Part shown: in pieces, positions 218 to 42,648 of the stretch
Position numbering within the stretch: position 1 is the first letter of the stretch
Layout of the letters: each line of letters starts with the position of its first letter
IMG/VR virus record: IMGVR_UViG_3300014039_000031
Span: 7,725-71,724 of that record
DNA: 64,000 bases
Direction: 5' to 3' (one strand)
DNA from: a virus
Made by a program: the position numbers and the translations under genes
Notes under the pieces: model-generated
What the model was told of the DNA's origin: nothing
Seen by the model: only the letters and a program-made list of their open reading frames with translations
The model's database searches: none

Positions 218-1201
218 TTAATTCGTTAACCCACAAGTACGTGCAGCGACGTCCATCTTGTCTGTGTCTGTATTACCGCAGTTAGAGCACTCCCACCACG
301 TATTCCCATCGGTGTCTTTATGTACATCAATAGTCTGTGACTCGCCGCAAACGTGGCAATAGGAAGTCTTTGTATTAATCTCACAGTACATGATGTTATT
401 ATAAATACATTCTAGAATTGGATACAGAACGGAAATATTCTTAGATACATCTGAACTTTCTACGTAACTTAGGCAACCTCCGACAGAATACTTCTGGAAT
501 TCGCCTTCAAGTTCAATCTTGGAGAATGGGTCAATTGGTTGAGAACTCGGGATGTGATAAGAATTTTCAAAATACTTCTTGTTTCCAAATAGTTTCTTAA
601 ACTGGTCTGGATAACGTTCTTTGGTCTTAATCGCAAACTTGTAACATAATGATTCTGCTGGGGACGCATAAAGCGAATACCCTACGTTCTCTGCTTGTTT
701 CCATTCTTCACACTTGTTTGTCAAGAACTTGAGAATTCGTAACATCAGCTCTTGTCCGTTTTTGGTGAAATTATCTTCACCAATGAGAATCTTAACTGCT
801 TCGTTTCCTCCATTGTATCCAAGCGAGACTGTAGCATATCCATTGTGAACTAGCTTGTCTAGAGTCTCGTCTGGATCTAGTCTAGCTAAGGCTCCATCAA
901 CCCATAAGATTGGAGCTACGCCAGCTTTTGTTTTTGAAAGTCTATCAACTCGAACTTTTAGACCTGTGTGACAAATTTCAGCTCGTTCATCCAGTAATCT
1001 GAAAAAGATTTCAAGAAGATGTTCTTGAGATTTATCCCTGTCATATTTAAGTTCTTCTTGTGCGGCGAAAGCTGTATCTGGAAGATTCAGACTAGAAACG
1101 CCGCAATTGAATCGTCCATAATATTTTGGTTTGCCATCTTCATCTAAATATGGAGATAGGAAACTTCTACAACCCCATGAATATTCTATACAAAACGCCA
1201 C
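218..1201 (-). CDS. nrdD: Anaerobic ribonucleoside-triphosphate reductase NrdD, C-terminal exon (true 5' splice boundary lies inside the ORF; ends right at the glycyl-radical motif)
   Basis: C-terminus CHVCGES...WECSNCGN...AARTCG matches NrdD zinc ribbon plus glycyl radical loop; stop 3 codons later followed by intron-like repeat. Confidence 0.6.
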   Translation of the reverse strand: MAFCIEYSWGCRSFLSPYLDEDGKPKYYGRFNCGVSSLNLPDTAFAAQEELKYDRDKSQEHLLEIFFRLLDERAEICHTGLKVRVDRLSKTKAGVAPILWVDGALARLDPDETLDKLVHNGYATVSLGYNGGNEAVKILIGEDNFTKNGQELMLRILKFLTNKCEEWKQAENVGYSLYASPAESLCYKFAIKTKERYPDQFKKLFGNKKYFENSYHIPSSQPIDPFSKIELEGEFQKYSVGGCLSYVESSDVSKNISVLYPILECIYNNIMYCEINTKTSYCHVCGESQTIDVHKDTDGNTWWECSNCGNTDTDKMDVAARTCGLTN

Positions 1202-1589
1202 TTTTGTATACGTTCTCTTATGAACTGCTATATGTTTACATATAGATTAGACTATATCATATTCTTATTATTATAAGAATTTTTACATTTCGGTTATCTG
1301 TCGCTTATAACCTACGTCACATAAGGACTAGTCGTTAGGCTTTTATAGATATTGAATACTTTTAATCCCTCTGTTTAAATATCCTTTTGTTTTACTATTA
1401 TAAACAACACCCTGTTCATTGACCAAATACCATGACCAATTAGGTATCTTTTTCACATATAATCACCTCCACATTTTCAGGAGGTTTCTTCAACATCTAT
1501 TCTTAGCACGGTAAGTTATCTATATTTTTATAGACTTTCTCCGTTTAGAAAAATTTGCTATCAATATCACTATTGAAAGGCACAGTTAA
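1202..1589 (-). mobile_element. Intervening sequence splitting nrdD; candidate ORF-less group I intron
   Basis: 388 bp, no ORF, separates NrdD N- and C-terminal reading frames; contains ctacgtcacataagga similar to motif in other introns here. Confidence 0.4.
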
Positions 1590-2792
1590 TTAGTTTATGC
1601 AGGGGAAACAATGACCTTCGCCATTTGCATCTACCTTGATTTGCTTCATCACTTTCTCGCTGATATAATCAGGAGTTAAGCGTTTAGCAGAACATTCAAC
1701 CGCTTTCTGAGTTACATGCCAGTATTTAGTACCTGGCTTATAATTATCCTCTTCAAGAACATATAGTAGCTTAGGAAAAGCCTGAGTAACATATACACCT
1801 TGGCGATTCGGCATACCCTTTTCTCTCTGTTTTAGAAACTCTTTGATAAGAAGAACAAGTTCTTCTTTATATTCTTCTGTTTCGCCGATATACATAAATA
1901 AAGAGCAAAAAGGCGCCTGGCCGTTTAATGTAAACAGCGTTGAAATTTGATAATTAAAAGTTTGTACCGAATCTGCAATTTCTTTTTTTAAATCTGCAAG
2001 TGCAAACTTTTCTTTTAGTTCATCTGAAATATCTTCATTTTTATACTTGTTTTTGAAGATATTGTAACTATCACGAACAAAAGGAGCTAAATGAGTTAGT
2101 GTGATGGATTCTCCACCATAAGAATTAGCTGCGACACTAGCCATAATCTGCGTAGTTACAGTCATAGCTGTTAAAAGACGATGCGGCTTATTGATGCGCA
2201 CATTATTAATAACCGTGCCATTTTGCAGCATATCTTCTAGATTGATAAGGTCACAGTTATGAAGGGTTGATTGTGCCATATAATCCATATCATGTTGATG
2301 GCAGATACCAGCATCATGAGCTTCAATGACTTTTTTAGGGAAAATATAATTGCGAGCAATATCTGTGCTTGTAATACCAGCTAGATAATCTCGTTGTACC
2401 GTAACAAGTTTAGCATTTTTATTGCTGTTCTCTGTAGCCCAATAACTTTCTGGGTCATTTTTAATCATATCAAGAATTTCAGCGTCATTGTGTTTCTGAC
2501 GCGCGAGTTGGTGCTCATAACGATAAATCATATAAGATTTAGCGACATGCGGATAATCTCCCATGAGCAATTCTTCAACCGCATCTTGAATCTCTTCAAC
2601 AGTCATCTCATCATGGAAATATTCCGCATCTTGAAAATCTTGTGCGACATTTTTTGCTACGGAATGACAATCACTTTGTTCCCATCCAAGAGAATCAGAA
2701 ACATCACGTGCCGCACGATAGACCGCATTTTCAATCTTAGACAAATCAAATTTTACTTTGCTTCCATTTCGTTTTGTAATATATCTAGTCAA
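1590..2792 (-). CDS. nrdD: NrdD N-terminal exon (ATP-cone plus catalytic barrel N-part)
   Basis: N-terminus MTRYITKRNGSKVKFDLSKIENAV = ATP-cone; class III RNR-like. Confidence 0.7.
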   Translation of the reverse strand: MTRYITKRNGSKVKFDLSKIENAVYRAARDVSDSLGWEQSDCHSVAKNVAQDFQDAEYFHDEMTVEEIQDAVEELLMGDYPHVAKSYMIYRYEHQLARQKHNDAEILDMIKNDPESYWATENSNKNAKLVTVQRDYLAGITSTDIARNYIFPKKVIEAHDAGICHQHDMDYMAQSTLHNCDLINLEDMLQNGTVINNVRINKPHRLLTAMTVTTQIMASVAANSYGGESITLTHLAPFVRDSYNIFKNKYKNEDISDELKEKFALADLKKEIADSVQTFNYQISTLFTLNGQAPFCSLFMYIGETEEYKEELVLLIKEFLKQREKGMPNRQGVYVTQAFPKLLYVLEEDNYKPGTKYWHVTQKAVECSAKRLTPDYISEKVMKQIKVDANGEGHCFPCIN

Positions 2793-4246: not shown

Positions 4247-4879
4247 TTATTTACACATTAACTCATTTACGCAATATTCAACGTAAAGGTTATTCACGAT
4301 TTTGCATACTGGATTTTTCACTTTTTTCGTTTTTATCCAAAGATAATTATCATGCGCTCTCGCACCAAGTCCAAACCATACATCAAAGCAATACTTATCT
4401 CCGAAATCATTATGGTCGGTCCAAGCTCTGCGCAAATATTCAAGTTTGAATTTATGCTCACGTTTATACGAACGTATCATTCTGATAATGAATGGAGTAT
4501 CTAGATATACATAAATAACTGTATATCGTCTTCCATATGAACTCAACGAATGAACGCCTTGCGGATTAAGTACGCAAACATTGACACTATTTTTTTTAAA
4601 AGAATTGACAGATGTGCCATAGTACCAATCACGGAATTCCGCACATTCAAGAAATTCATGGTTATGCTTTTTTTGCATAAATTCCATAGAATTTATAAAA
4701 TGATAATCTTCGCCATCAACTTCTCCTTCTCTCGGAGGACGTGTGGTATATGATACAACTTTATTTACTGGAACATTCTTAGACTTATAATACTTTACAA
4801 TTTGATTCTGCGTATAATTTTTTCCAGATGCAGACTTGCCGCAAATCGCTATTACTATTGGTTTCATTTTACCTCTCAA
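4247..4879 (-). CDS. Guanylate kinase-like nucleoside monophosphate kinase
   Basis: P-loop GKSASGK and TTRPPREGEVDGEDYHF guanylate kinase signature. Confidence 0.7.
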   Translation of the reverse strand: MRGKMKPIVIAICGKSASGKNYTQNQIVKYYKSKNVPVNKVVSYTTRPPREGEVDGEDYHFINSMEFMQKKHNHEFLECAEFRDWYYGTSVNSFKKNSVNVCVLNPQGVHSLSSYGRRYTVIYVYLDTPFIIRMIRSYKREHKFKLEYLRRAWTDHNDFGDKYCFDVWFGLGARAHDNYLWIKTKKVKNPVCKIVNNLYVEYCVNELMCK

Positions 4880-4951
4880 TAAAAATATAGGAGCAAACCT
4901 TTTCTGTTTACTCCTATATTATATCAAAATATTATTCAATTGTCAAAAATT

Positions 4952-6265
4952 TTATTCTTCACCATACCGTCTATTTGTCATTTCAATAGTACCATCAGAA
5001 TTGATTTGAGTGATTTTATATAACTGGTGCTGTGTTTGGCCTTTGCGTTTATATGCTTTTAAAATGAAAGTATCACCACGCCTAAAACCATTGCAAACTA
5101 CTAAAGTACCACGCTGAAAAAATCCTTGTTCCATAATTTTTTTTGAACCATCTGGCTTAATCTCACTAATACGTTTATTGTATTGAGAAAAGTATTCTTT
5201 AGACATTTTTACGTTAGCAATTCCTCCAAGAGTAGCTAAAGTAATCTGTGAATGTAATTCATCTTTTGCGATAACAGTCCCGGCTATGCGGCAAGTCTTA
5301 AAAATAGGAATATCTATATCATTACGTTTAAAAGTATAATCTACAGTCGGGGTTTGCGGCAAATCGTTAAAAGATACAATATCATACATATTCATTTTTA
5401 CATGAGATAATTCATGCTCATGGTAATACATGCCTAATGATTCCATTTCCCAATGAGAAATCGAACCAGCCGCATATTTATTCCATGCATCTTGGTCCAT
5501 TTTACCATTTAGTTTATTAAGTAGTTCTTGTTGATTCTCAATGATATAAGATTTTGCCGCACTCATTACCTTATCATATTCCTTTTTCCATACTTTTTTG
5601 TTAAGACATAATTGGTTGTCTATTGGCTCAATCATATCTTCATCAAAAAATTTGATAAAGAATTTATAATATACATCATGTAGCGCAAAATATTCCGAAT
5701 TAAATTTGCAATCTTTTTTTAATCCTTTATTAAAATTAAAAACTCGCTTTTGAATAATTAATCCTTTTGGAATTAAATTATTTTCAATTAAGGCATTAAA
5801 ATTCTGTAAAGTCAATTTCTTTTTAGGGTTAGTTGTAGTATGAAGATACTTCCGCATAATATCTTTACGTCCCCCAAAAGAATCAAAAGCACCAGACTTA
5901 ATTAATGATACCATAACAGTCTTATTAACTTTTGTCTTTCCTTCAAAATCTTCTAAAGACTTATAAGGGCGGTTTTCAATAATTTTTAAAGCAACTTCAT
6001 TGCCTACCCCTTGAAGCCCGCCAAGACCATAATGAATTACATTATTGTCTGCATCTGGTGTAAAAGAAAGCTCTGACTTATTTATGTCAATAAGTGAAAT
6101 TTTAATTCCTTCATTTTTCATCTTATTAACTGCTCGTGCGATTTTATTGTAATCAGATGATTTGTCATCCAAACCGGCAATCGTACCGCTATCGACAATA
6201 AGATTTGCACAGTTCCAAAAAATGACTGGAAATCGGAACGCTAAATTCATTTCTTGAAGGGCCAC
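4952..6265 (-). CDS. dnaE: DNA polymerase III alpha (DnaE-type) exon 3 (fingers/HhH/OB region)
   Basis: YGLGGLQGVGNEVALKIIENRPYKSLEDF = DnaE HhH region. Confidence 0.7.
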   Translation of the reverse strand: MALQEMNLAFRFPVIFWNCANLIVDSGTIAGLDDKSSDYNKIARAVNKMKNEGIKISLIDINKSELSFTPDADNNVIHYGLGGLQGVGNEVALKIIENRPYKSLEDFEGKTKVNKTVMVSLIKSGAFDSFGGRKDIMRKYLHTTTNPKKKLTLQNFNALIENNLIPKGLIIQKRVFNFNKGLKKDCKFNSEYFALHDVYYKFFIKFFDEDMIEPIDNQLCLNKKVWKKEYDKVMSAAKSYIIENQQELLNKLNGKMDQDAWNKYAAGSISHWEMESLGMYYHEHELSHVKMNMYDIVSFNDLPQTPTVDYTFKRNDIDIPIFKTCRIAGTVIAKDELHSQITLATLGGIANVKMSKEYFSQYNKRISEIKPDGSKKIMEQGFFQRGTLVVCNGFRRGDTFILKAYKRKGQTQHQLYKITQINSDGTIEMTNRRYGEE

Positions 6266-7461
6266 TAATGAGTACGCTAACGTATGTGATAAATTACGTT
6301 ATAAAATAACTGACTATTTCTTACGCTTTTTACCCAAGAGCCACTTGGTAAGCGCACGCTGTTTCCATCTACGTATCAATAGTAAATGTACTCTCGGTCT
6401 AACCCAAGATAGTCGATACAGCATTATTTGAAAAGATTATTCCATGTTTCTCTATTTGCCATTAGGTTATCTCGTAAAGGATATAAGAACCTATCATCGT
6501 AACGATTGCGGCCAACGTTAATTGCTGTAAAGGTTGATTTTGATTTATTGTATTTTTTCCCTAATGCTATCATAGATATATTAGTAAACAATAAATCATG
6601 TATAGCTTTTTTACCAAAATCTATATCAGCACACGCTTTATAACATAACGGATAAGTTTCATCATCTCTGTGCCACCTATGGCCAGAATTTATTTCACTC
6701 AAATATCCTTTACTAATATGATACTCGGCAGCAATATCATCATAATATTGTCCATTTTTAATTGCTTGAATAATTTTATCTTGTATTGCTTTTGAGTAAC
6801 TTGTTTTGTTCTTACCTAACGGATAATCTAATTTTTCGTTATAAAAATTTAAGCCAGAAGCTATGTTAGATAAAAAAGTGTTTGTCAAAATTGGATATTT
6901 TTGATAAATTTCAAAATATGCATATCCATCTACTAACATTTTTTGAATATCTGTCACTTGCTCTATGGTAAATACTTTACTACAAGCAACCCTTTCTTCA
7001 AAAGTTTTCGGATGCGGCATTTTGCCACTCCCGCCTATTTTAATATTGTATCCATTTTGGCTAGTTAATGATTTATAATATGCAATAAAGAAAATTTCTC
7101 TTTCGTCTACATATTCTTGTCCTAAACTGTCGTCAATTTCTTCTACAATTTCAAAATTAAAATTATTCCATCCATATTTTCTAATAGCATTGTGAAACGC
7201 ATTGGTGTAATCAGGTGATTTAGGATTATAAGCCGTAGATTTATGTCCACGTTTACGCTTCTCGATATTATTTGTTTGTCCTATGTATATTTTATCATTA
7301 ATTTTATTTGTAAATTTATAAATATAATGCATTTCCCCTCCCCTCATATAAAATAAATCTTTTCAAATTTTGCCACGAGATTTTACCCTCGTTAGCCTTA
7401 TATATTCTTCATTGGCTAAAAGTTAGAATTATAATTATATAAGACCATATTGATAAATATT
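6266..7461 (-). mobile_element. Intervening sequence B in dnaE carrying GIY-YIG homing endonuclease (group I intron-like)
   Basis: Separates dnaE exon 2 and 3 frames with stops; shares 16-mer ctacgtatcaatagta (6385..6400) with dnaB intron. Confidence 0.55.
6424..7347 (-). CDS. GIY-YIG homing endonuclease
   Basis: YIYKFTNKINDKIYIGQTNNIEKRKRGH N-terminal GIY-YIG. Confidence 0.8.
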   Translation of the reverse strand: MRGGEMHYIYKFTNKINDKIYIGQTNNIEKRKRGHKSTAYNPKSPDYTNAFHNAIRKYGWNNFNFEIVEEIDDSLGQEYVDEREIFFIAYYKSLTSQNGYNIKIGGSGKMPHPKTFEERVACSKVFTIEQVTDIQKMLVDGYAYFEIYQKYPILTNTFLSNIASGLNFYNEKLDYPLGKNKTSYSKAIQDKIIQAIKNGQYYDDIAAEYHISKGYLSEINSGHRWHRDDETYPLCYKACADIDFGKKAIHDLLFTNISMIALGKKYNKSKSTFTAINVGRNRYDDRFLYPLRDNLMANRETWNNLFK

Positions 7462-7692
7462 TTAGCGTGTAGGGTCCAACGTCTCAAACCCATATCCTCG
7501 ACTTGTAGCTACGCATACATTCCAAACGTAGTTACATAAGTTTTTACTAAGGTGTCGTTCGCGTACTCTTTCAAAGTATTCTTTTTCGCATTCTTTATAT
7601 GCTTCAGGTTGTTTCTTTGCCACGGATTTGCGGAGTCTATCGGCGAAGTTTAGATCAAAACCACCGCATTCAGGTATTTGAACCAACATCAT
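7462..7692 (-). CDS. dnaE: DnaE exon 2 (short middle exon)
   Basis: LVQIPECGGFDLNFADRLRKSV...SRGYGF aligns with DnaE [23 protein letters not shown]...AGYGF. Confidence 0.6.
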   Translation of the reverse strand: MMLVQIPECGGFDLNFADRLRKSVAKKQPEAYKECEKEYFERVRERHLSKNLCNYVWNVCVATSRGYGFETLDPTR

Positions 7693-8040
7693 AAACCTTT
7701 ATACCCCTGCTTTCGCAGTATTTGTTAGGGAGTAGACTATACAATCAACTTTCGTTGTCTCCATTATAGTCGTTGAGCGTTTCTCTGTTCTAGAGACTTC
7801 GATGCGTCTGGTTACCCAATCCTTAGTGATTTTACCATACCTTGGTCGCTAACCTTGCCGCCAATACATCCCTGTACTGGTTTGGTTACTAAGGCTCTAA
7901 GGGCTTTCCCGCAATTTAGGAGATTTATAGAGCGCTTTATAATTTTTATATTAAATAAAATTTTTCTTTTTTTTCGAGTTAAAAAGGAATCAAAATATTC
8001 ACCTCCAATCTTTTAATTCCTTTTTAACTTGTTTAGGTTG
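7693..8040 (-). mobile_element. Intervening sequence A in dnaE, ORF-less, contains repeat copy B (7758..7929)
   Basis: Exon 1 stops at ...YGICESQER* and exon 2 resumes MMLVQIP (DnaE YGIxxYQEQVMQIAQ); no ORF. Confidence 0.5.
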
Positions 8041-10350
8041 TTAACGCTCTTGCGACTCACAGATTCCGTATGAGATTTTCAGAACAGGTTCTAGAATCTT
8101 TTGTTCCTGTTTTGTTAACCCGTAATCGTCCATTTCTTGGTACCATAAAGATATATCTTTTTTAAACCTTGCGTATTTTTCAAGCGGTTGCTCCGCACCT
8201 TTTTCTTGTGCCATTAATCTGATTACACTATTTAAAGTAGCCAAATCGTCTACTGATTGCGGATGCGTTAATGCAATCCCCTGTACGCCACTTGACTTTT
8301 CCATCTGGAAACATGATTGAATTTTATGGTTCCAAAGCATTTCCCACATCTTAGGGTCATTACGTTCTATCTTATAAATACCAATAGCATTCTCATACGT
8401 CTCTTTTAATGTAGGATATTGCTTCAAATAACCATACTTGCAAAGTAATTCCAAGCATATTTGAATTTTATCCATCGCTTCAACAGAAAGTAGGTCGTAC
8501 TTAATAAGTGATAGTTTTTCAAGGTCATGTAAGTCAAATTGACTAATAATTGTACCATCAGGTGCTCGCATAAGTGCTGCGGTATTGGTAAACGGTTCAT
8601 CTACAAATACCAGTCCACCTGCGTGTATCCCCGAACGGCATACCAAACCTTCAATTCTAGATGCAACTTTCCATAGTTCTGAACGCTGCTTCATTTCTTG
8701 AACAAATGGAACAACAGGTTTCATACCTTCTTTATCGTCTCCATAATAACACTGATGAAGAGAACGAATAAGTCCACGGTCAGAAGGAACCAAAGAAGCA
8801 ATATATTGTGCAATATTGTTATCAATTCCTAGACCACGCGCGGCCGTTAAAATTGCTGATTTAGTTTTTTCTTTTCCAAGAGTAAGTACGTTACAAACCC
8901 TATCTTCACCGTATACATCACGAAATTTTTGAAGAATTTGTCCTCGCCGCAAACCAGACACATCTATGTCAACATCAAGGACAGACACTCGTTCAGGGTT
9001 GAGGAATCGCCAAGGGTATACTTTTGTAGTTTCTCGAAGTGCATTTATCTGGATGATTCCCAGTACATAAAGGATTAAAAAACCTCCGCCAGAGCCTCTT
9101 GAACAGCCGACAATAGACCCTGCTTCCCAAATGGTATCAATAATTTTCTGTAAATTTAGAAAATAAGATGACCAATGCGCATGATTAACAAGAGAACTTT
9201 GCCATACTGAATCAAGTTCTAGATTGATTTCATCGTATGCGGCCTGATTTTGTAAGTCTTTTTTCTCTTGAATACCTTGAAGGATTAGTTTGCCAAGCAA
9301 ATGGTCGCCTTCAAAATCAGATTCAAGAAGGTATTTTAGATTTGGAATTTTATCTTGAAAATCTCTAACTTGCTGCTCAGTGATATAACTATCTTTCCAT
9401 GGAAGTCGAGGAATTTTCAATGGTTTTTTAAGATTATAATCCTCACACTGATTTTTAATACATTCAATGTTTTTATATGCCGCGTATATTTGGTCTTTTG
9501 TCATATAGTTAAAGAAAGATTCAAGCTCTTCTGTACCCATCAAATAAGTTGTTGCATAAAAATCAGAAACCTCACGCTCTCCGTTTTGTGATTTGAGATA
9601 GGCTTCATGAATAAAGGCTTCATCTTTCTTTAAATAATGCGCATCACATGTAATAATATATGGAATATCTAACTTTTCAGATATTTTTAAAAACATCTTA
9701 TTTACAAAAATCTGTTCTGGATTATCAGACGGTTGCATTTCAAGATAAAAGTTACCTTTTCCAAAAATATTTTGAACATATTTTAACCATTTAATTGCCT
9801 GATTAAAATATTGTCTATCATGCGTGTTCATATACTTTACAAGTAACTGTTGGCAAAATCCACCGAGACACGCTGTTGAAGCAATTATATTACCTTGGTT
9901 TGGTTTAATAATATCAATCAAATCTTGATAGTATGTAGGTACTCGCCGCATACCGCGTGCCATATAGGAGCGCATCCACGCACGAGTAGAAATTTCACGA
10001 ATCTGTTGGTGCCCAGCCGCATTTTTTGCCAATAGAATGAAGTGATAATATTTATCTTCTTCTGGATTATAGTTTTCATTATTTAAACCATCGCGGCAAA
10101 GATAAATCTCATTACCTAAAATCACCTTAAAATTAGGATTATCCTTTTTGCGTTTTTCGTATGCTTCTTGTATCTTTACCGCATTTGCAACCGTTTCATG
10201 TTCAGTATATGCAATTACGTCTTGCCCTAATTCAAGTGCATAATCCATAATGCCTTCTACAGTATTTATTGAATCTCTAAGTCTAAGGTTCGAAAAATCA
10301 GTGTGGTTGTGTAAGCTCCCGGGATATTTTGTGAACTTTTTATGTTCCAT
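8041..10350 (-). CDS. dnaE: DnaE exon 1 (PHP domain + polymerase core)
   Basis: N-terminal PHP HNHTDFS, large Pol III alpha core. Confidence 0.8.
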   Translation of the reverse strand: MEHKKFTKYPGSLHNHTDFSNLRLRDSINTVEGIMDYALELGQDVIAYTEHETVANAVKIQEAYEKRKKDNPNFKVILGNEIYLCRDGLNNENYNPEEDKYYHFILLAKNAAGHQQIREISTRAWMRSYMARGMRRVPTYYQDLIDIIKPNQGNIIASTACLGGFCQQLLVKYMNTHDRQYFNQAIKWLKYVQNIFGKGNFYLEMQPSDNPEQIFVNKMFLKISEKLDIPYIITCDAHYLKKDEAFIHEAYLKSQNGEREVSDFYATTYLMGTEELESFFNYMTKDQIYAAYKNIECIKNQCEDYNLKKPLKIPRLPWKDSYITEQQVRDFQDKIPNLKYLLESDFEGDHLLGKLILQGIQEKKDLQNQAAYDEINLELDSVWQSSLVNHAHWSSYFLNLQKIIDTIWEAGSIVGCSRGSGGGFLILYVLGIIQINALRETTKVYPWRFLNPERVSVLDVDIDVSGLRRGQILQKFRDVYGEDRVCNVLTLGKEKTKSAILTAARGLGIDNNIAQYIASLVPSDRGLIRSLHQCYYGDDKEGMKPVVPFVQEMKQRSELWKVASRIEGLVCRSGIHAGGLVFVDEPFTNTAALMRAPDGTIISQFDLHDLEKLSLIKYDLLSVEAMDKIQICLELLCKYGYLKQYPTLKETYENAIGIYKIERNDPKMWEMLWNHKIQSCFQMEKSSGVQGIALTHPQSVDDLATLNSVIRLMAQEKGAEQPLEKYARFKKDISLWYQEMDDYGLTKQEQKILEPVLKISYGICESQER

Positions 10351-10767
10351 TTATTCTCCCTTTTTCTGTTCCTTTTCAGCACGCTCTTTCGCTTTTTGCT
10401 TGCGGCGTTTTGCTCCTGCTTTCTTGCCTTTTTCTTTCACCCAATCAATTTTTTTGTAGTCATATTTCTCAGACCATTTTTCAAAATCTTCCTGCGTAAA
10501 ACAATTTACAAGTTCTGGTACTCCACACTGAATCTCTTTTTTCATATAAGCGCCTTTTTGCCGACCTGTCATTTCATCGGGAAGAACTTCGCCTGTCAGA
10601 TGTTCGTAATTCAAATTCCAATTAAAGCGACTCATTTTACGTGTAGGCATACCTACTTCTGTTGTATAGCGACATTCTTTATTATAGCAAGTTGAATACC
10701 ACTTACTGTTCTTTTTAAAACCATTCACGTTATGCCGCCCGCATACAGGACATTTCGCCATTCGCAT
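10351..10767 (-). CDS. Hypothetical zinc-ribbon protein with basic tail
   Basis: CPVCG...C..C motifs, KR-rich C-terminus. Confidence 0.5.
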   Translation of the reverse strand: MRMAKCPVCGRHNVNGFKKNSKWYSTCYNKECRYTTEVGMPTRKMSRFNWNLNYEHLTGEVLPDEMTGRQKGAYMKKEIQCGVPELVNCFTQEDFEKWSEKYDYKKIDWVKEKGKKAGAKRRKQKAKERAEKEQKKGE

Positions 10768-11123: not shown

Positions 11124-11915
11124 TTAAAATATCCATTCATCTTCATTTTCTTCTAATTCGAAATCATCAATTAAAATTTGCGGCGTAACGTTTAAAGCAT
11201 ATTCCCAATGAGTATTATGTGTTTGAGAATACGTGCCTTTACAACACATACTAATAGAGCCATGTGGAATACCAGTTTCTTTTTCTGCTTGCCTTGCAGA
11301 TGGATATATAATATTTGTTTCTAAACATTTTACTGGAATTCCGTTACTATGCGTCCCATACATAGGATTTTTATTACCAGTCATATCTAAACTATGTTGT
11401 TTCTTCCATTCTTCTGTATGTGGTGGCCGACTATAGTCGGGGTCTAAGCGCATTCGTTCAAGTCCCTGCATCATTTTTATATGATGTTGCTTTCCTTCTT
11501 CGGTTTCCATAAAATTTTTTGCCCATTCTTTTCTTCTTTCGCGCTCTTTTTCAGTACAATTATATCCACAAATACCTTCTCCACCGCTTGTAAGATTATA
11601 TTGGTCTTTATCTATAAAAGTTTTAAAATAATTTATCCAATAACTTTCTCGTTCACTACCAATATTTTCATAGTCGCTTTTTGGAATTTCTTCTACGATT
11701 TCTATTTGAAAAAATTGTGCTCCATATTTTAAAATGGCATTTTCTACTGCATTTTTTCTCCTATTTGGATTTTTTGCTTCATATACATGACTTAACAATC
11801 GTTTTCTTATATTATTACTTTTTCCTATGTAACTATGTCCATTTATGCTATTAGTAATTTTGTATATTCCAGAGATATTATTATATTTATAGGGAATATT
11901 ATTTAAAAAATCCAT
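11124..11915 (-). CDS. GIY-YIG homing endonuclease, free-standing, C-terminal 25 aa homologous to the RecJ-like gene tail
   Basis: GIYKITNSINGHSYIGKSNNIRKRLLSHV; tail NVTPQILIDDFELEENEDEWIF. Confidence 0.8.
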   Translation of the reverse strand: MDFLNNIPYKYNNISGIYKITNSINGHSYIGKSNNIRKRLLSHVYEAKNPNRRKNAVENAILKYGAQFFQIEIVEEIPKSDYENIGSERESYWINYFKTFIDKDQYNLTSGGEGICGYNCTEKERERRKEWAKNFMETEEGKQHHIKMMQGLERMRLDPDYSRPPHTEEWKKQHSLDMTGNKNPMYGTHSNGIPVKCLETNIIYPSARQAEKETGIPHGSISMCCKGTYSQTHNTHWEYALNVTPQILIDDFELEENEDEWIF

Positions 11916-13618
11916 TCTATTTCATCTTCTTTAGCTACAACTTCAAAATCTTCAACTATAATTTGTGCTGTAACATTCCCCATCCAAGAATTTTTGGAAC
12001 ATTTGCCGACAATGGTTAGTTTCTTTTCTCCGCTTGTCCATTCCTCAAATTCTTCTCTGCTCGATTTAAATTTCATAATATCTACGCCAGAAGGTAGAGA
12101 AATCTTAATCGTAGGATGTCCTTTGGCTTCACCTAGTAGTTGGACATTAACATTATCTAATGGAATATCCTCAATAACAATTTTAGATTCTGGGATACCT
12201 TGACCATAGATATTTAATGCGGCAATATCTAGAACCGTTTTAGGATTAACTTGCATATAGTTCCAAATATAGTCTACATAATAGACTGGTTTAAAGTCAA
12301 TTCCTTGGTATTCTTTGTTGGTTACTTCTAGGAACTTATAATAGTTCTCTAAAGGTATCTCAAACCCGAACGCTGAGGTGTGGCCCTGCGCGAAATCTAT
12401 TAAACCGGTATTTTCACAGAGACTTCTCATATCTTCGATGGGGCAATAAGAATAGTTACGGGCACTGCCACGTAAATGAATTCCGTCTTCTTCTTCGACT
12501 TCTTGAAGTACCAAAGTTGGGTGTTGATATTTCGCTTGAATTTTATTTGCCGCAAGACCTAAAATGGAACTGGGAATATCATCTTTGCCGCATACACAAA
12601 TGATAATGGCATTATCAGTTAATCTCTTCTCTTGGATTTGATATTCAAGAAATTCCATAGCTTCATCTTGCAGCTTGGTTTGTCTACGCTTTACACGTTC
12701 GATAACGGTAATTGCCTCTTGCCAAAGAGGAACCTTTTTCCCTTTTTCACCCCTCTTGGATGATAGAACCATTGTATCACATTTATAGTCCAGAAGAGCA
12801 TTCATAAGCAGCCGTTTCTCAACCATCTCACCACTTCTACACATCGCGTTGATATAAGGGGTAATATAAAACGCCCAACTAAGATAATTAGAACCGTTCA
12901 TTTTATTCAACGAAAATTCCTGCTTTTTTACAAACTCACTAATGAATTTATTATGTAAATTAGACGTGCCTAGTTTGACAATTGCTCGTGTCTCCTGAGT
13001 AGTATATAACATCATATCGCTTAAGTTACCAAGAGCACATAAATCAATATAATCTTTTGCATAATTAAAATTAAAGAGTTCATCTAACATGCGGCAAAGC
13101 TGCCATGTAATGCCTGCACCGCTGAAATCTTTGTTCGGATAATTGTCCAATTGATTATTTACAACAATAGCATCTTCTGAATACTTCTCACATATATGAT
13201 GGTCAAGGCAGCAAACATCAACGTTATTATCTTTGAGATACTTATGTTGTTCATAATCGTTACTAGAAGAATCCGGTAAGATTAACAAATCTGTTGTATC
13301 AATAATCTCGTCTAAATCTATATCTGCAAGACCATGAGCTTTCCCTTCATGGATGACAATATTGGGCTCTTTTCCACAGATGCGATTAATGTAATTTGCA
13401 ATGATGCTAACGCTCGTGCATCCATCCACGTCACAGTCCTGTAAGATGGAGATTTTAGAATCCTTCCACATGCAGTGATTACCAATCATAACAGCAGCAT
13501 CTTTAATGTTCCGAAGCAAATGGTAGTCATTGATACTTTCTAATCCCGCATCCAACCACTTTTCTTGTTCTTCTACTGGAATATCTCTATTATACAAAAT
13601 TTGTTGCAGAGGTGTCAA
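11903..13618 (-). CDS. DHH-family phosphoesterase, RecJ-like ssDNA exonuclease
   Basis: DVDGCTS and LDHH motifs. Confidence 0.65.
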   Translation of the reverse strand: MTPLQQILYNRDIPVEEQEKWLDAGLESINDYHLLRNIKDAAVMIGNHCMWKDSKISILQDCDVDGCTSVSIIANYINRICGKEPNIVIHEGKAHGLADIDLDEIIDTTDLLILPDSSSNDYEQHKYLKDNNVDVCCLDHHICEKYSEDAIVVNNQLDNYPNKDFSGAGITWQLCRMLDELFNFNYAKDYIDLCALGNLSDMMLYTTQETRAIVKLGTSNLHNKFISEFVKKQEFSLNKMNGSNYLSWAFYITPYINAMCRSGEMVEKRLLMNALLDYKCDTMVLSSKRGEKGKKVPLWQEAITVIERVKRRQTKLQDEAMEFLEYQIQEKRLTDNAIIICVCGKDDIPSSILGLAANKIQAKYQHPTLVLQEVEEEDGIHLRGSARNYSYCPIEDMRSLCENTGLIDFAQGHTSAFGFEIPLENYYKFLEVTNKEYQGIDFKPVYYVDYIWNYMQVNPKTVLDIAALNIYGQGIPESKIVIEDIPLDNVNVQLLGEAKGHPTIKISLPSGVDIMKFKSSREEFEEWTSGEKKLTIVGKCSKNSWMGNVTAQIIVEDFEVVAKEDEIEWIF

Positions 13619-15069: not shown

Positions 15070-15399
15070 CTATTCATTTGGTTTCGTAGGGAAAAAATCT
15101 TTAGGGTCTATCAGTTTATAGAAGAAATCTGTTACAAACAATGTTTTATATCTGCAAGTGCCTTTGTCCGCATACATCCAACAAATAACGCGATTATATT
15201 TCCCTCGTCTGTTCTTATATACACTTTTTTTCATATTCGGAACACCAATGCCTGGGTGAGACGCAAGAATTCCTTCAATATCCTGTATGTCTTCTTCTGT
15301 GCAATCCACCATAATTTCACCAAAGTCGATACGGTTTGCAATTGATTTTGCACCCGCTAGCATGGTCTGGTCTAGAATCTTTTCTTGTTTAAAACTCAA
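15070..15399 (-). CDS. dnaB: DnaB-like helicase exon 2 (H4 region)
   Basis: LAGAKSIANRIDFGEIMV ~ DnaB RESGSIEQDADVVMFL; KNRRG ~ KQRNG. Confidence 0.55.
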   Translation of the reverse strand: MSFKQEKILDQTMLAGAKSIANRIDFGEIMVDCTEEDIQDIEGILASHPGIGVPNMKKSVYKNRRGKYNRVICWMYADKGTCRYKTLFVTDFFYKLIDPKDFFPTKPNE

Positions 15400-16429
15400 C
15401 TTATATAAAGTTCGACTATCTCTTATTACTTATATAAATAAATAAAATTCTATTTCGGTTTTCAAATGATTCGTTTCCTAAAACATTGCTACGTATCAAT
15501 AGTAGCCCTACTTCCCCGCTTTGCAACATAGGGAATAGTCTGTACGTATTACATGTTATTTTTATTAATATGCATGGCCTAAACATATATAGCTAATCAT
15601 ACTTAAGCTGCATCTATTATTAAAATATGATTGAATTTCAGATAAAGTTTTTCCTTCTACTCTTAACTCTTTCATTTTAATAACTTCTTCTGGATTAAAA
15701 CGCCTATGCGCTTTTTACAGATTTCGTCATTAGCGACATTTTTATTTAAAGGGTACTCCCTATCATCATCGTGCCAATTAATACCTTTATTAATTAATGT
15801 AATCGTAGCAGAAGAAACATGATACTCATGTGCTATTTCTTTAAAAGTTTGCTCTCTTCTTACAATTTTTTCTTTAATCTCTTCTACTTCTTTTTCGGTT
15901 AATTTTGCCTGAGAGTGCCTTTCACGTTTTAATGCAAACGTCTTTTGCCCACCAGATGCTACATTGTATCCATTTTCATTGATGTCAGAATGAAAATTCT
16001 TTATCCAATATTTTTCTCTTTCGTCTAATTCATCTTTTGAGCATTCCTCTAAAATCTCTAAGGAATATCCTTCACCTATATTTTCATATTTAGCCATCGC
16101 TAAATGAACTGGAAGATTCGTGTCTCTACAATTCTTACTTGTATATTTTTCAGGATGCGACGAACGATAATGTCCTCTATATCTATCATATATATCTACA
16201 CTTTGCCCTACATAACTTTTTCCATTCGGAAAAATTATACGATATATTCCGCAAATTCTCTTTCTCATTTTACCTCCTTTCTTTTTTATAATAAATATAT
16301 ATATTAGCCAAAAATATAATAAAAATAACATGTTTTTACACGGGATTGGCATTTAGCTTTCCCCGTTAGCAATTATTATTAATAATTACCCCAATGATGA
16401 ATTGGAAAAAAATTACTGGCAGCTTGTCA
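15400..16429 (-). mobile_element. Intervening sequence in dnaB with GIY-YIG homing endonuclease
   Basis: Exon 1 ends right after the H3 SNTQIN motif; 16-mer ctacgtatcaatagta at 15489..15504 shared with dnaE intron B. Confidence 0.5.
15672..16352 (-). CDS. GIY-YIG homing endonuclease
   Basis: CGIYRIIFPNGKSYVGQSVDIYDRYRGHY. Confidence 0.8.
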   Translation of the reverse strand: MPIPCKNMLFLLYFWLIYIFIIKKKGGKMRKRICGIYRIIFPNGKSYVGQSVDIYDRYRGHYRSSHPEKYTSKNCRDTNLPVHLAMAKYENIGEGYSLEILEECSKDELDEREKYWIKNFHSDINENGYNVASGGQKTFALKRERHSQAKLTEKEVEEIKEKIVRREQTFKEIAHEYHVSSATITLINKGINWHDDDREYPLNKNVANDEICKKRIGVLIQKKLLK

Positions 16430-17680
16430 TTACAACGGTTTACCATTAATTTGGGTATTTGAGAGCATGAAAATATTATTTTCTACCGCAATATCCTTGA
16501 GTTTTGAGGACATTAGAAACAAAATCTGGTCCTCACGGACTCTCATTCCTGTTCCTTGAGAAATCTCTTCAATCATCTTAATAGAAGATGTTAAATAATC
16601 AAATACTACGCATTGAAACGATAGATAATCAGTGCCTCCTTGCTCATTTACTCTTGGATATTTATATTTGCGGATATTGCGTTTAATGCAATTATCAACA
16701 TCTTTAAGACCATAGTTAGGAAGATATTGCATACGAAGTGGCGCATTACTAAGAATCTCCATAGATTTTCTAAGACGCTCTTCTTCCTCAAACGTTAACA
16801 GCTCAGGGTCAAGAATATGGTCTTCTGGAATATTACCGATAAAAGATAGCGCCATGGTTTGTAACTCTTCAATATCTAACTCAACTGAAATATAAAGAGT
16901 AGGGATACGATTATATAACTTCTCCCATTCACCTCTATCATTATAGTATTCGCTACAGGAAAAGAAACATGCATCGGCAACATCGCTTCTTGACTTGCCA
17001 GAACCGCTAGACCCAGAACGTAAATAAAATTTACCCCGCCGAGCGCCCATAGCAATGGCATCTTCATATGCATCGTACATGGCCCATCCGCGTGCTGGCG
17101 TGTGCCGCAAATCATCTATCAATTCGTTAATTCCATCACCAACAAGGACAGAATCAGAATCGTTATTATTCACATAAAAGTCACGAATGAAATAGAATTT
17201 ACTCTCGATGTCATCGGCTAATTGCTCTAAGCTCGTTCGGTCAAAATATTCATCTTGTGATTGCTTTTTACTTAAATCAAGAATATTATCTGGGTCATAA
17301 ATATCTGATACATCTACGCCAATAGAATCATAAGCTCGAAGAAGGGACATTTTCTTTAAGCGATTATAATAATAATCAAAAGCATCTACGTGCGTATCTT
17401 CAAATGTTTGCATCATCCATTTGCGGCCATTGTTAGCTTTATAGATTGCCAAAGACTTCGGCTTATCCTTTAAGTATGGCTCAATTTCTCGGCCTAAATG
17501 GTTCGTTACACCGCTATTATAAAGATTGTAAAGTGCGCCAAATATCACTTTATGTAAATCATTGCAGAAGTCTTCCTCTGAAAAGAAAAAACGTCCATCA
17601 GAAGCAAGATAGTCTGGCTTATGCATACAGCATCCGATAACCTGAATAGCCGCTTCTGAATCGTAATATTTACTAATCAA
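16430..17680 (-). CDS. dnaB: DnaB-like replicative helicase exon 1
   Basis: DnaB N-domain, Walker A GSSGSGKS, Walker B VVFDYLT, H3-like LSNTQIN. Confidence 0.7.
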   Translation of the reverse strand: MISKYYDSEAAIQVIGCCMHKPDYLASDGRFFFSEEDFCNDLHKVIFGALYNLYNSGVTNHLGREIEPYLKDKPKSLAIYKANNGRKWMMQTFEDTHVDAFDYYYNRLKKMSLLRAYDSIGVDVSDIYDPDNILDLSKKQSQDEYFDRTSLEQLADDIESKFYFIRDFYVNNNDSDSVLVGDGINELIDDLRHTPARGWAMYDAYEDAIAMGARRGKFYLRSGSSGSGKSRSDVADACFFSCSEYYNDRGEWEKLYNRIPTLYISVELDIEELQTMALSFIGNIPEDHILDPELLTFEEEERLRKSMEILSNAPLRMQYLPNYGLKDVDNCIKRNIRKYKYPRVNEQGGTDYLSFQCVVFDYLTSSIKMIEEISQGTGMRVREDQILFLMSSKLKDIAVENNIFMLSNTQINGKPL

Positions 17681-40847: not shown

Positions 40848-40922
40848 GGGCCATTAGCTCAGTTGGATTAGAGCCTGAAACTTCTATTTTCAAAGTCGCG
40901 CGTTCGAGTCGCGCATGGCTCA
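40848..40922 (+). tRNA. tRNA-Arg (anticodon TCT)
   Basis: Manual cloverleaf: GGGCCAT/ATGGCTC acceptor, GCTC/GAGC D stem, TGAAA-CTTCTAT-TTTCA anticodon arm, GCGCG-TTCGAGT-CGCGC T arm; flanked by inverted repeat cagtctacta/tagtagactg. Confidence 0.8.
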
Positions 40923-40969
40923 CTTAGTAGACTGGCAATAAGTTAGTCTATGTTATTTAAAACAGCATT

Positions 40970-41152
40970 TTGAAAGGATTTATTGTGAAAATTCGTGATT
41001 GGGAAGACTTCGATGAAGAGGATAACTTTGAAAAATTTTCCCATAAGACAAAACTAATTCGCCAGCGCAAAGATGATACTTATAAAAGTAAGCGTCGTGA
41101 GAAGCGTGAGCGTCAAGAATTTGAAGAAAATGCTGCGAAGGGCGGGGAGTAA
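40970..41152 (+). CDS. Hypothetical small basic protein (non-ATG start likely)
   Basis: ORF. Confidence 0.3.
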   Translation: MKGFIVKIRDWEDFDEEDNFEKFSHKTKLIRQRKDDTYKSKRREKRERQEFEENAAKGGE

Positions 41153-41236
41153 TTCCTGCCCTTTTTTATTATAAAAAATAGTTGCCATTTGCCACATAAT
41201 CATATATAATATATTTACCAAAAGAAAGAGGTAAGT

Positions 41237-42172: not shown

Positions 42173-42178
42173 TTTTAG

Positions 42179-42642: not shown

Positions 42643-42648
42643 TTCTAT

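What the first reader, a model, noticed from the sequence alone, without database searches (positions are those of the whole stretch)
4952..10350. dnaE (Pol III alpha) in three exons: one ORF-less intron and one GIY-YIG-bearing intron
Exon 1 (8041..10350) ends YGICESQER*. The 76-aa ORF at 7462..7692 aligns to the next DnaE segment (VMQIAQVL...ADLLRRAM...AGYGF), so it is a short middle exon. Exon 3 (4952..6265) carries the HhH/OB region. Intervening sequence A (7693..8040) has no ORF. Intervening sequence B (6266..7461) encodes a GIY-YIG endonuclease. Stop codons at all junctions argue for RNA splicing (group I introns), not inteins. A triply split DnaE-type polymerase is unusual.
Basis: partly seen in the sequence, partly recalled or inferred. 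Interest (0 to 1): 0.6.

Follow-up and report, generated by a model that had tools for sequence, protein, structure and literature searches.

The report
Phage DNA polymerase gene with two self-splicing introns
A phage's DnaE-type DNA polymerase gene is interrupted by two group I self-splicing introns, one of which has lost its homing-endonuclease gene while the other still carries one; this is a well-known kind of selfish element, and related phages carry up to four such introns in the same gene.

Summary
Three minus-strand ORFs are colinear with the unsplit SPbeta YorL polymerase and join into one 1286-aa reading frame.

The corrected introns are A = 7696..8043 (348 nt) and B = 6297..7486 (1190 nt).

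**Intron A** is a group I ribozyme.
- It has a 7-bp P1 with U·G at the splice site, an adjacent 8-bp P10, P3–P9 and a terminal G.
- Rfam RF00028 scores its core 30.7 bits (E 2.7e-6), below the gathering score of 50.
- Intron-less relatives read exactly the predicted ligated junction.
- It is not primitively ORF-less. An ortholog holds a LAGLIDADG gene, and the window keeps only that gene's start and end.

**Intron B** is invisible to RF00028.
- It belongs to a large IMG/VR family of at least 119 loci.
- The family's P1/P3/P4/P6/P7/P7.1/P7.2/P9 fold, including the P3 pseudoknot, shows strong covariation.
- Its intact I-TevI-like GIY-YIG gene sits in the P6 loop.

"Unusual" is not supported. Fourteen relatives use at least six insertion sites in this gene, with up to four introns in one gene. 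A Staphylococcus phage has a three-exon pol gene and Lactococcus phage AM1 a split one. The window itself holds two more introns, in nrdD and the helicase gene.

This is a new member of a known kind. Splicing is inferred, not shown.

The parts
8044..10350 (-). Exon 1 of the DnaE-type (YorL-like) polymerase gene: PHP, palm/thumb and the first part of the fingers. It ends ...CAA GAG CGU.
   Evidence: The catalytic-looking motifs VLDVDID, HAGG and KYDLL are readable in the translation.
7696..8043 (-). Intron A: a 348-nt group I intron without a functional ORF. It starts UAA (an in-frame stop) and ends ...AAAGG (terminal G).
   Evidence: Hand-derived P1-P10 structure. RF00028 partial hit at 7716..7960. 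92-94% identical to the intron at the same site in L022. Intron-less relatives read CAAGAGCGU|UUUAUGAUG.
7929..7943 (-). Internal guide sequence of intron A. GCGCUCU (7929..7935) pairs with the exon-1 end AGAGCGU to form P1, with U·G at the splice site. AUUAUAAA (7936..7943) pairs with the exon-2 start UUUAUGAU to form P10.
   Evidence: In L022 the G·U pair in P10 becomes G-C (sequence).
7947..8006 (-). Remnant of a deleted LAGLIDADG homing-endonuclease gene in the P1 loop. It keeps the Shine-Dalgarno GGAGGUG (8000..8006), the UUG start (7991..7993) and the last ~14 codons plus stop (7947..7949). About 743 nt of ORF interior are missing.
   Evidence: alignment with L022 1194..2287; 268-aa ORF with LGYLHADG / LLDGDG motifs. 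That ORF hits phrog_4645, described only as 'endonuclease'.
7487..7695 (-). Exon 2 (209 nt, about 70 aa): the end of the finger domain, from FMMLVQIPECGGF to SRGYGF.
6297..7486 (-). Intron B: a 1190-nt group I intron of IA type with P7.1/P7.2 and two hairpins between P3 and P4. Its endonuclease gene lies in the P6 loop.
   Evidence: Helix map. Family covariation. An ORF-less 203-nt ortholog at the same site in L022 and ORF-bearing orthologs in L013 and related loci. The intron-less allele L015 reads GGGUUUAAU across the site.
7371..7486 (-). 5' ribozyme half of intron B. IGS GACCC (7472..7476) pairs with the exon-2 end GGGUU. The P3 5' strand is CACGCU (7464..7469). Then come hairpins P3.1 and P3.2, P4 (ACGAG/CUCGU) and the P6 5' strand GGCA (7371..7374).
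6424..7347 (-). GIY-YIG homing-endonuclease gene (307 aa), I-TevI-like, with its own Shine-Dalgarno (GAGGGGAGGGG N3 AUG).
   Evidence: Pfam GIY-YIG 6e-9. phrog_7168 and phrog_314 'homing endonuclease', 2e-39 and 3e-26. The I-TevI catalytic domain 1LN0/1MK0 matches at E 8e-4. 69% aa identity to the ortholog in L013/L023.
6297..6423 (-). 3' ribozyme half of intron B. P6 3' strand UGCU, P7 GACUAU (6409..6414) with AUAGUC (6312..6317), P7.1, P7.2, P3 3' strand AGCGUG (6355..6360), P8, P9 and the terminal G at 6297.
4952..6296 (-). Exon 3 (1345 nt including the stop codon): NLSHTLAYS..., the HhH domain and the C-terminal/OB region.
   Evidence: The conserved NLSHTLAYSL lies upstream of the first possible start codon (GUG at 6265) and one codon after an in-frame UAA.

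Best explanation
The minus strand of 4952..10350 carries one gene for a phage DnaE-type (SPbeta YorL-like, C-family) replicative DNA polymerase. Two group I self-splicing introns interrupt it.

**How it should work (inferred).** The gene is transcribed as one pre-mRNA. Each intron folds into a ribozyme, binds an external guanosine and removes itself by two transesterifications. The exons join as ...YGICESQER|FMMLVQ... and ...SRGYGF|NLSHTLAYS..., giving a 1286-aa polymerase.

**Intron A (348 nt).** It is a Tetrahymena/SPO1-like core with a P5 extension and no P2. It once carried a LAGLIDADG homing-endonuclease gene in its P1 loop. An internal deletion of about 743 nt removed that gene, so the intron can now spread only passively.

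**Intron B (1190 nt).** It is an IA-type ribozyme with an intact I-TevI-like GIY-YIG endonuclease gene in the P6 loop. The enzyme should cut intron-less polymerase alleles of co-infecting relatives in the highly conserved GYGFN(K/L)SH motif, and repair then copies the intron in (homing).

**Shown here:** gene continuity, splice-site geometry, ribozyme secondary structure with covariation, and the existence of intron-less, ORF-less and ORF-bearing alleles.

**Inferred, not shown:** actual splicing and endonuclease activity.
For: **Gene continuity.**
- Three colinear tblastn segments match YorL and the Geobacillus phage GR1 polymerase.
- The joined exons give one 1286-aa frame.

**Intron A.**
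- P1 is 7 bp with U·G, P10 is 8 bp and immediately adjacent, and P3/P4/P5/P6/P7/P8/P9 all form.
- RF00028 matches 7716..7960 at 30.7 bits, E 2.7e-6.
- blastn links the core to unannotated gaps in split genes of unrelated phages. One of these, SBSphiJ5, is an RF00028 hit at 54.5 bits.
- Relatives L010, L019 and L023 read the predicted ligated junction exactly.
- Against the L022 ortholog, 3 paired positions show compensatory changes and 4 show one-sided pair-preserving changes. Three are broken, two of them in the deletion-made stem.
- The intron is 92-94% identical to the L022 ortholog, while flanking exons are 72-74% identical.

**Intron B.**
- The U·G / terminal-G rule places the junction consistently in the window (GGGUU|U...CG|UAAU) and in L022 (GGGUU|U...UG|CAAU).
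- L015 lacks the intron.
- The family alignment of 27 complete introns shows 92.2% of cells paired, against 35-44% when partners are slid. The covariation score is 0.522 against 0.08-0.12, and 0 of 500 shuffles reach it.
- The P3 pseudoknot has double changes in 5 of 6 pairs.
- RNAalifold on 94 3' halves finds P7, P7.1, P7.2 and P9, with compensatory changes in 17 of 23 pairs.
- A different intron inserted 1 nt away in relatives is a bona fide RF00028 hit at 62.9-65.6 bits.

**Endonuclease gene:**
Against: - No transcript or splicing data exist.
- RF00028 does not reach its gathering score for A and gives nothing for B.
- Intron B has a very reduced P5 and a short P9 compared with most family members.
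- MAFFT misaligns the window's copy in the P3.2/P4 region, so its P4 rests on reading by eye plus the L022 and L013 orthologs.
- P7 is invariant in the family alignments because the search pattern fixed it, so P7 has no covariation support.
- Much of the family was gathered with a pattern derived from the window's own sequence.
Confidence: 0.9

Rival explanations
1. The polymerase gene is fragmented or pseudogenised. The three ORFs are decaying pieces, or separately translated subunits, and the intervening DNA is just inserted endonuclease genes and junk.
For: Stop codons lie at or just inside each 5' junction and one codon upstream of exon 3. RF00028 is below threshold or absent. Free-standing endonuclease insertions do occur in this genome, for example 11124..11915.
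Against: - All three pieces stay open and are 77-85% identical in protein to relatives.
- The conserved NLSHTLAYSL of exon 3 has no start codon upstream and follows an in-frame stop, so it cannot be translated without splicing.
- The guide sequences pair precisely with both exon ends.
- The ribozyme helices covary.
- The same introns sit in otherwise intact genes on at least 6 other contigs.
Confidence: 0.04
2. The interruptions are inteins, or 'fractured gene' arrangements in which split inteins flank a free-standing endonuclease, and are removed at the protein level.
For: DnaE genes are classic intein hosts. Fractured DnaE loci with a GIY-YIG gene between the halves have been described (PMC2677866). 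From memory, the cyanobacterial DnaE split intein sits in the same GY|(G/C)FNKSH motif.
Against: - The reading frame is broken by stop codons 0 and 8 codons into the intervening sequences.
- Only 7 extra residues follow GYGF, and none precede NLSH, so there is no room for intein halves.
- No Hint/intein domain appears in Pfam.
- The endonuclease ORF is in its own frame with its own ribosome-binding site.
Confidence: 0.01
3. The introns are real group I relics, but one of them no longer self-splices and needs a host or phage protein, or splices so poorly that polymerase output is limited. The candidates are intron B, with its reduced P5/P9, and intron A, with its large AT-rich P1 loop.
For: - Intron B lacks the P5 extension and the long P9 seen in most family members.
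- Intron A has 108 nt between the 5' splice site and its guide sequence.
- In Bastillevirinae, 4 of the 8 validated split genes spliced only in infected cells and not in vitro (PMC11878797 abstract).
Against: The same reduced intron-B form is kept in at least 7 contigs with intact exons. The intron-A core is 92% conserved, with compensatory changes.
Confidence: 0.25

Closest known systems
Group I introns in phage DNA polymerase genes (SPO1/SP82 I-HmuI intron, Bastille I-BasI; Bastillevirinae pol genes with 1-3 introns, PMC11878797; Twort multi-intron genes)
   Same: Self-splicing group I introns, many carrying homing-endonuclease genes in a peripheral loop. They insert at the most conserved motifs of the replicative polymerase, several per gene, with a patchy distribution among relatives.
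   Different: Those hosts are family-A polymerases (phrog_17). Here the host is a C-family DnaE/YorL-type polymerase. I found no paper describing group I introns in a phage DnaE-type gene. GenBank records nonetheless show such a gene split in two in Lactococcus phage AM1 and three exons in Staphylococcus phage PT1-1.
T4 td intron with I-TevI
   Same: An IA-type ribozyme with P7.1/P7.2. A GIY-YIG endonuclease gene lies in the P6 loop with its own ribosome-binding site, and there is an in-frame stop soon after the 5' splice site. The I-TevI catalytic domain aligns with residues 9-103 of the window's ORF.
   Different: The host gene differs. The similarity to I-TevI is weak (E 8e-4) and confined to the catalytic domain, and the C-terminal DNA-binding part is unassigned. 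Intron B also has two extra hairpins between P3 and P4 (P3.1/P3.2-like) and no P2.
B. anthracis/B. cereus recA and phage 0305phi8-36 recA group I introns with an ORF in the P1 loop (PMC2677866)
   Same: The endonuclease ORF is placed in the P1 loop, as in the ancestor of intron A (L022 ortholog).
   Different: Those ORFs are Vsr-like. Here the ORF is LAGLIDADG-type by its motifs and has been deleted in the window.
Cyanobacterial DnaE split intein (Ssp/Npu DnaE)
   Same: From memory: a mobile element interrupts DnaE within the same GY|(G/C)FNKSH motif, 1-2 codons from the intron B site. This illustrates that the motif is a preferred homing target.
   Different: That element is removed at the protein level and sits in unlinked gene halves. 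It shares no homology with the elements here. The site equivalence was not tested with tools.

Membership tests
Group I intron (intron A) | P1 formed by the 5' exon end and an internal guide sequence, with U·G at the 5' splice site | tested here: met
   AGAGCGU pairs with GCGCUCU over 7 bp and ends in U·G. It is conserved in L022, with an A-U to G·U change.
Group I intron (intron A) | Terminal G at the 3' end, and P10 with the 3' exon adjacent to P1 on the guide sequence | tested here: met
   The intron ends ...AAAGG. UUUAUGAU pairs with AUUAUAAA over 8 bp, directly 5' of the P1 strand.
Group I intron (intron A) | Conserved catalytic core P3-P8 with the P3/P7 pseudoknot, scored by the Rfam RF00028 covariance model | tested here: inconclusive
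   30.7 bits against a gathering score of 50, E 2.7e-6 on a 281-nt search, model positions 19-253. No hit in the larger scans. All helices can be drawn by hand, with 3 compensatory changes against L022. A 70%-identical relative passes at 54.5 bits.
Group I intron (intron A and B) | GTP-dependent self-splicing that yields ligated exons | not testable with these tools
   Needs in vitro splicing or RNA data. The indirect evidence is that intron-less alleles equal the predicted ligated exons.
Group I intron (intron B) | P1 with U·G, a terminal G, and P10 | tested here: met
   GGGUU pairs with GACCC and ends in U·G. The intron ends ...AACG. P10 is UAAU/GUUG, 4 bp in the window and 5 bp in L022 with pair-preserving changes (sequences).
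Group I intron (intron B) | Core helices P3, P4, P6, P7 and P8 with the P3/P7 pseudoknot topology, supported by covariation | tested here: met
   On alignment A2, 92.2% of cells are paired against 35-44% when slid. P3 has double changes in 5 of 6 pairs, P4 in 1 and P6 in 2. P7 is invariant, so it has no covariation evidence. P8 was not column-consistent and was left out of the count.
Group I intron (intron B) | Match to Rfam RF00028 | tested here: not met
   No hit at E<=10, even for the ORF-less 203-nt ortholog or in the window scans. The model appears insensitive to this subfamily. The R and S core elements (GUAUCGACUAU / AAGAAAUAGUC) resemble the group I consensus as I recall it.
Subgroup IA (intron B) | Extra helices P7.1 and P7.2 between P7 and the P3 3' strand | tested here: met
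   RNAalifold predicts both hairpins, and they covary strongly: all 4 P7.1 pairs and all 7 P7.2 pairs have double changes. The precise subgroup (IA1, IA2 or IA3) was not tested.
GIY-YIG homing endonuclease (I-TevI-like) | N-terminal GIY-YIG catalytic domain with the motif residues (YIY...YIG, Arg, Glu, Asn) | tested here: met
   Pfam PF01541 at 6e-9 over residues 6-101. The alignment to I-TevI 1LN0 keeps IY..N..N.K.YVG, ERE and GYNI.
GIY-YIG homing endonuclease (I-TevI-like) | Site-specific cleavage of the intron-less allele near the insertion site | not testable with these tools
   Indirect evidence only: the same intron is present or absent among relatives with about 84% aa identity.
Bacterial/phage C-family polymerase, DnaE/YorL type | PHP, Pol III alpha core, fingers and HhH domains in order, colinear with an unsplit homolog | tested here: met
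   Pfam; 36-38% identity to YorL and the GR1 polymerase over the whole length.
Intein / split-intein 'fractured gene' | An in-frame Hint domain (or two halves) flanking the break, with no stop codons between extein and intein | tested here: not met
   Stops occur 0 and 8 codons after the junctions, and Pfam finds no Hint domain.
Group II intron | Six-domain structure of about 600 nt or more, a 5' GUGYG, and a reverse-transcriptase ORF | tested here: not met
   Intron A is 348 nt and begins UAACAA; intron B begins UGAGAC. There is no group II Rfam hit. The ORF is GIY-YIG, not a reverse transcriptase.

The most novel reading that the evidence does not exclude
The two introns might act together as a splicing-dependent switch.

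- Read-through of the unspliced RNA ends at the UAA that opens intron A.
- Skipping of the 209-nt exon 2, which is known for Twort group I ribozymes, would join CGU to UAAUUU and create the same stop.
- So every incompletely or alternatively spliced transcript would give one defined 769-aa PHP-plus-polymerase-core fragment ending ...ESQER. That fragment could have its own role, such as an exonuclease or a dominant-negative regulator of replication timing.

Separately, and more likely: the GYGFN(K/L)SH motif of phage DnaE-type polymerases is a general homing hot spot. At least four unrelated ribozymes insert within about 10 nt of each other there. The intron-B family, IA-type with P3.1/P3.2, is an abundant class that RF00028 does not detect.
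Probability: 0.05. Interest if true: 0.55.

Novelty: new member of a known kind. Interest (0 to 1): 0.3.

Why it matters
**Annotation.** Gene callers will report three "polymerase fragments" plus a "hypothetical protein". A standard Rfam scan reports none of the four introns in this window, so DnaE-type polymerases of such phages are systematically mis-annotated as broken.

**Biology.** The locus and its 14 relatives form a compact natural series of the homing-endonuclease life cycle within one gene: invasion, endonuclease loss, and mini-introns. At least six sites are used, and three different ribozymes lie within 9 nt in the most conserved motif of the enzyme.

**Limits.** None of this changes current understanding of group I introns.

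Tried and rejected
- **Rfam, whole window at gathering and 4800..10500 at E<=10:** no group I hit. A positive control showed that RF00028 is in the library and works.
- **megablast of the locus against phage genomes:** nothing.
- **RF00028 on the ORF-less intron-B ortholog:** nothing.
- **MFE folding of intron A alone:** it recovers only P7, P8 and local hairpins and is of little use for the pseudoknotted core.
- **P8 of the intron-B family:** it could not be put into consistent alignment columns and was dropped from the count.
- **P1 of the intron-B family:** it is register-shifted between subfamilies, so its 80% paired figure is an underestimate.
- **The two hairpins between P3 and P4:** I first thought they were non-canonical. 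A paper lists P3.1 among the optional group I helices (PMC3873408), so I do not claim novelty for them.
- **Literature searches for group I introns in phage DnaE-type genes:** no direct description found.
- **Intein, split-intein and group II readings:** rejected on sequence grounds.
- **Not used:** the large protein-database searches and structure prediction, because they would not change the verdict.


Full report
**1. The observation.**
- ORF 8041..10350 carries PHP, the Pol III alpha core and finger-model positions 12-119.
- The 76-aa ORF 7462..7692 carries finger-model positions 127-165.
- ORF 4952..6265 carries the HhH domain.
- ORF 6424..7347 carries a GIY-YIG domain.

The closest cultured homologs are unsplit polymerases of about 1260-1305 aa from Geobacillus phage GR1, several Staphylococcus phages and SPbeta (YorL), at 36-38% identity. 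tblastn of YorL against the region gives three colinear matches: aa 5-775, 767-849 and 847-1302, with E-values of 1e-154, 2e-12 and 3e-92. The split is real and far beyond chance.

**2. Exact junctions.**
Homology extends upstream of the start codons of the second and third ORFs. I combined three criteria: the homolog alignment, the group I rule of a U before the 5' splice site, and a G as the last intron base. This gives:
- exon 1 = 8044..10350
- intron A = 7696..8043
- exon 2 = 7487..7695
- intron B = 6297..7486
- exon 3 = 4952..6296

The joined exons total 3861 nt and encode one open frame of 1286 aa, reading ...YGICESQER|FMMLVQ... and ...SRGYGF|NLSHTLAYS....

Fourteen IMG/VR contigs encode the same polymerase at about 84% identity. 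Most of them lack intron A. L010, L019 and L023 read CAAGAGCG(T/C)TT(T/C)ATGATG straight through the site, and L019 matches the predicted ligated junction at 18 of 18 bases. L015 lacks intron B and reads GGGTTTAAT through that site. These are natural intron-less alleles.

**3. Intron A is a group I ribozyme.**
- *Guide sequence.* GCGCUCU (intron nt 109-115) pairs with the last seven exon-1 bases AGAGCGU and ends in U·G. The eight bases directly upstream of it (AUUAUAAA) pair with the first eight bases of exon 2 to form P10. This is the canonical arrangement, and it fixes both splice sites independently of protein homology.
- *Core.* Downstream come P3 (UCUCC/GGAGA), J3/4-P4 (AAAUUGCGGG / CC-AGA-CGCA), a branched P5 extension, P6, P7 (GACUAUA/UAUAGUC), P8 (CAAC-GAAA-GUUG), P9 and the terminal G.
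- *Rfam.* RF00028 finds nothing in large scans. When the AT-rich P1-loop insert is left out it matches 7716..7960 at 30.7 bits, E 2.7e-6, over model positions 19-253. This is below the curated cut-off of 50.
- *Relatives.* blastn links the core at about 70% identity to unannotated gaps next to split genes in unrelated phages. These include nrdD of an Enterocloster phage, a Bacillus Nitunavirus, Twort-like phages and Lactococcus AM1. The Nitunavirus one is a full RF00028 hit at 54.5 bits.
- *Covariation.* Against the ortholog in L022, three pairs change on both sides and stay paired (P5a, P5b, P6) and four change on one side and stay paired.

**4. Intron A has lost its endonuclease gene.**
L022 has the same intron at the same site: 92% identity in the core and 94% at the 5' end, while the flanking exons are only 72-74% identical. 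The L022 copy is 1094 nt long and holds a 263-268-aa ORF with two LAGLIDADG-type motifs (LGYLHADG, LLDGDG). That ORF matches phrog_4645, described only as 'endonuclease'.

The window keeps the Shine-Dalgarno GGAGGUG, the UUG start and the last ~14 codons with the stop. About 743 nt in between are gone. The ORF sat in a hairpin inside the P1 loop. That position has a precedent in Bacillus recA introns (PMC2677866).

**5. Intron B is a group I ribozyme of a family Rfam does not see.**
No RF00028 hit appears at E<=10, even for the 203-nt ORF-less ortholog in L022. By inspection the intron has:
- P1 (GGGUU/GACCC, ending in U·G) and a 4-bp P10
- P3 (CACGCU ... AGCGUG, about 1100 nt apart)
- two hairpins, then UAA-P4 (ACGAG/CUCGU)
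- P6 (GGCA/UGCU), which encloses the ORF
- P7 (GACUAU/AUAGUC), P7.1, P7.2 and P8
- a short P9 and the terminal G

A pattern taken from P7...P7' (GTATCGACTAT N60-90 AAGARATAGTCAG) found at least 119 loci in IMG/VR. Many of them lie in gyrB/topoisomerase-like genes, and some lie in DnaE-type genes.

On 94 non-redundant 3' halves, RNAalifold predicts P7, P7.1, P7.2 and P9, with compensatory changes in 17 of 23 pairs.

On 27 complete ORF-less or ORF-trimmed introns, my full structure gives:
- 92.2% of cells paired, against 35-44% when partners are slid
- a covariation score of 0.522, against 0.08-0.12
- 0 of 500 shuffles reaching the observed values
- double changes in 5 of 6 pairs of the long-range P3 pseudoknot

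There are three caveats. P7 is invariant by construction of the search pattern. P8 could not be aligned consistently. MAFFT misplaces the window's own P3.2/P4 segment.

P7.1/P7.2 place the intron in subgroup IA. The two hairpins between P3 and P4 correspond to the optional P3.1-type helices mentioned in the literature (PMC3873408).

**6. The endonuclease of intron B.**
The ORF occupies intron nt 140-1063, entirely inside the P6 loop. It follows GAGGGGAGGGG-N3-AUG, and its stop abuts the P6 3' strand.

It matches phrog_7168 and phrog_314 'homing endonuclease'. Its first 100 residues align with the I-TevI catalytic domain, keeping the motif residues.

Orthologs in L013 and L023 are 69% identical in protein. 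The ribozyme parts are 87% identical in DNA, against 75-77% for the flanking exons. This fits lateral spread or strong structural constraint.

**7. How unusual is the arrangement?**
Mapping the spliced protein onto the relatives shows six insertion positions:

| Site (aa) | Content |
|---|---|
| 449/450 | 946 nt, GIY-YIG |
| 614/615 | 1240 nt, GIY-YIG; just before KYDLL |
| 769/770 | intron A |
| 796 | 261 nt ORF-less, or 1271 nt with LAGLIDADG |
| 836/837 | 166 nt, ORF-less |
| 839/840 | intron B |

At 839/840, intron B also exists as a 203-nt mini form. A different 285-nt ribozyme sits 1 nt downstream and is an RF00028 hit at 62.9-65.6 bits.

- L020 has four introns and five exons.
- Staphylococcus phage PT1-1 has a three-exon DnaE-type gene, with introns at the P|DIDID motif and in the YSFS motif.
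- Lactococcus phage AM1 has its gene split at GGG U|AU AGU UUU AAC (G-Y-S-F-N) by an intron whose 3' end resembles intron A.

Multi-intron polymerase genes are documented for family-A enzymes of Bastillevirinae, which have up to three introns (PMC11878797). So the triple split is ordinary for intron-rich Firmicutes-type phages. I found no publication describing it for a DnaE-type gene.

**8. Rivals.**
- *Pseudogene or separate subunits.* Contradicted by the conserved open exons, by the lack of any start codon for the conserved NLSHTLAYSL, and by guide-sequence pairing and covariation.
- *Inteins or fractured genes.* Excluded by stop codons right after the junctions and the absence of any Hint domain.
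- *Group II.* Excluded by size, termini and ORF type.
- *What remains open.* Whether both introns self-splice efficiently or need helpers. Intron B has a reduced P5 and P9.

**9. Verdict.**
The finding is correct in substance. It is a new member of a known kind, with two useful corrections: intron A is an endonuclease-deletion derivative, and the proposed Rfam test is not a valid refutation. Splicing and homing are inferred, not demonstrated.

Noticed in passing
window 218..2792 (-), intervening ~1202..1589: The anaerobic ribonucleotide reductase gene nrdD is also split, into ORFs 1590..2792 and 218..1201, by an ORF-less sequence of about 388 nt. RF00028 scores 27.8 bits (E 3e-5) at 1228..1334, so this is probably a third group I intron. 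The exact junctions were not mapped.
   Followed up: partly
window 15070..17680 (-), intervening ~15400..16432: The DnaB-like helicase gene is split into ORFs 16430..17680 and 15070..15399 by about 1 kb. That stretch holds a GIY-YIG ORF (15672..16352) and a ribozyme of the intron-B family. nhmmer with the family profile hits 16421..16332 (E 3e-9) and 15540..15414 (E 2e-7). This is a fourth intron.
   Followed up: partly
window 11124..11915 (-) and 11903..13618 (-): A free-standing GIY-YIG endonuclease gene lies between the recJ-like gene and the next small ORF, and it is absent from all 14 relatives. Its last ~25 residues (NVTPQILIDDFELEENEDEWIF) duplicate the recJ-like C-terminus (NVTAQIIVEDFEVVAKEDEIEWIF). 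The endonuclease gene therefore seems to have inserted inside the 3' end of recJ, bringing or leaving a duplicated gene end.
   Followed up: partly
whole window; L022 2504..2706: A standard Rfam gathering scan of the 64-kb window reports only 7 tRNAs and none of the four introns. The intron-B family has at least 119 IMG/VR loci, many of them in gyrB-like genes at ...KG|...|VGEM. RF00028 does not detect it even in ORF-less form.
   Followed up: yes
L011-L023 (IMG/VR relatives), pol gene: Three different ribozymes insert within 9 nt in the GYGFN codons: L019 at GGGU|AC, the window type at GGGUU|U, and the L011 type at GGCUUU|A. Lactococcus phage AM1 and Staphylococcus phage PT1-1 are hit in the same motif. 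From memory, the cyanobacterial DnaE split intein sits at GY|CFNKSH.
   Followed up: partly
L023 2230..5062: In relative L023 the recJ-like gene is itself interrupted at aa 354/357 by about 1.1 kb containing a GIY-YIG ORF.
   Followed up: no
L022 5602..5931: There is a further RF00028 hit (74 bits) about 1.5 kb downstream of the polymerase gene in relative L022. The host gene was not identified.
   Followed up: no
window 40848..51476 (+): Seven tRNA genes lie on the plus strand (Rfam RF00005, 45-72 bits). This is consistent with a large phage genome.
   Followed up: no
window 8044/6296 junction (hypothetical): Ligating exon 1 directly to exon 3 would read CGU|UAA. Exon-2 skipping would therefore give the same 769-aa product as translation of unspliced RNA. 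This is probably a coincidence.
   Followed up: no
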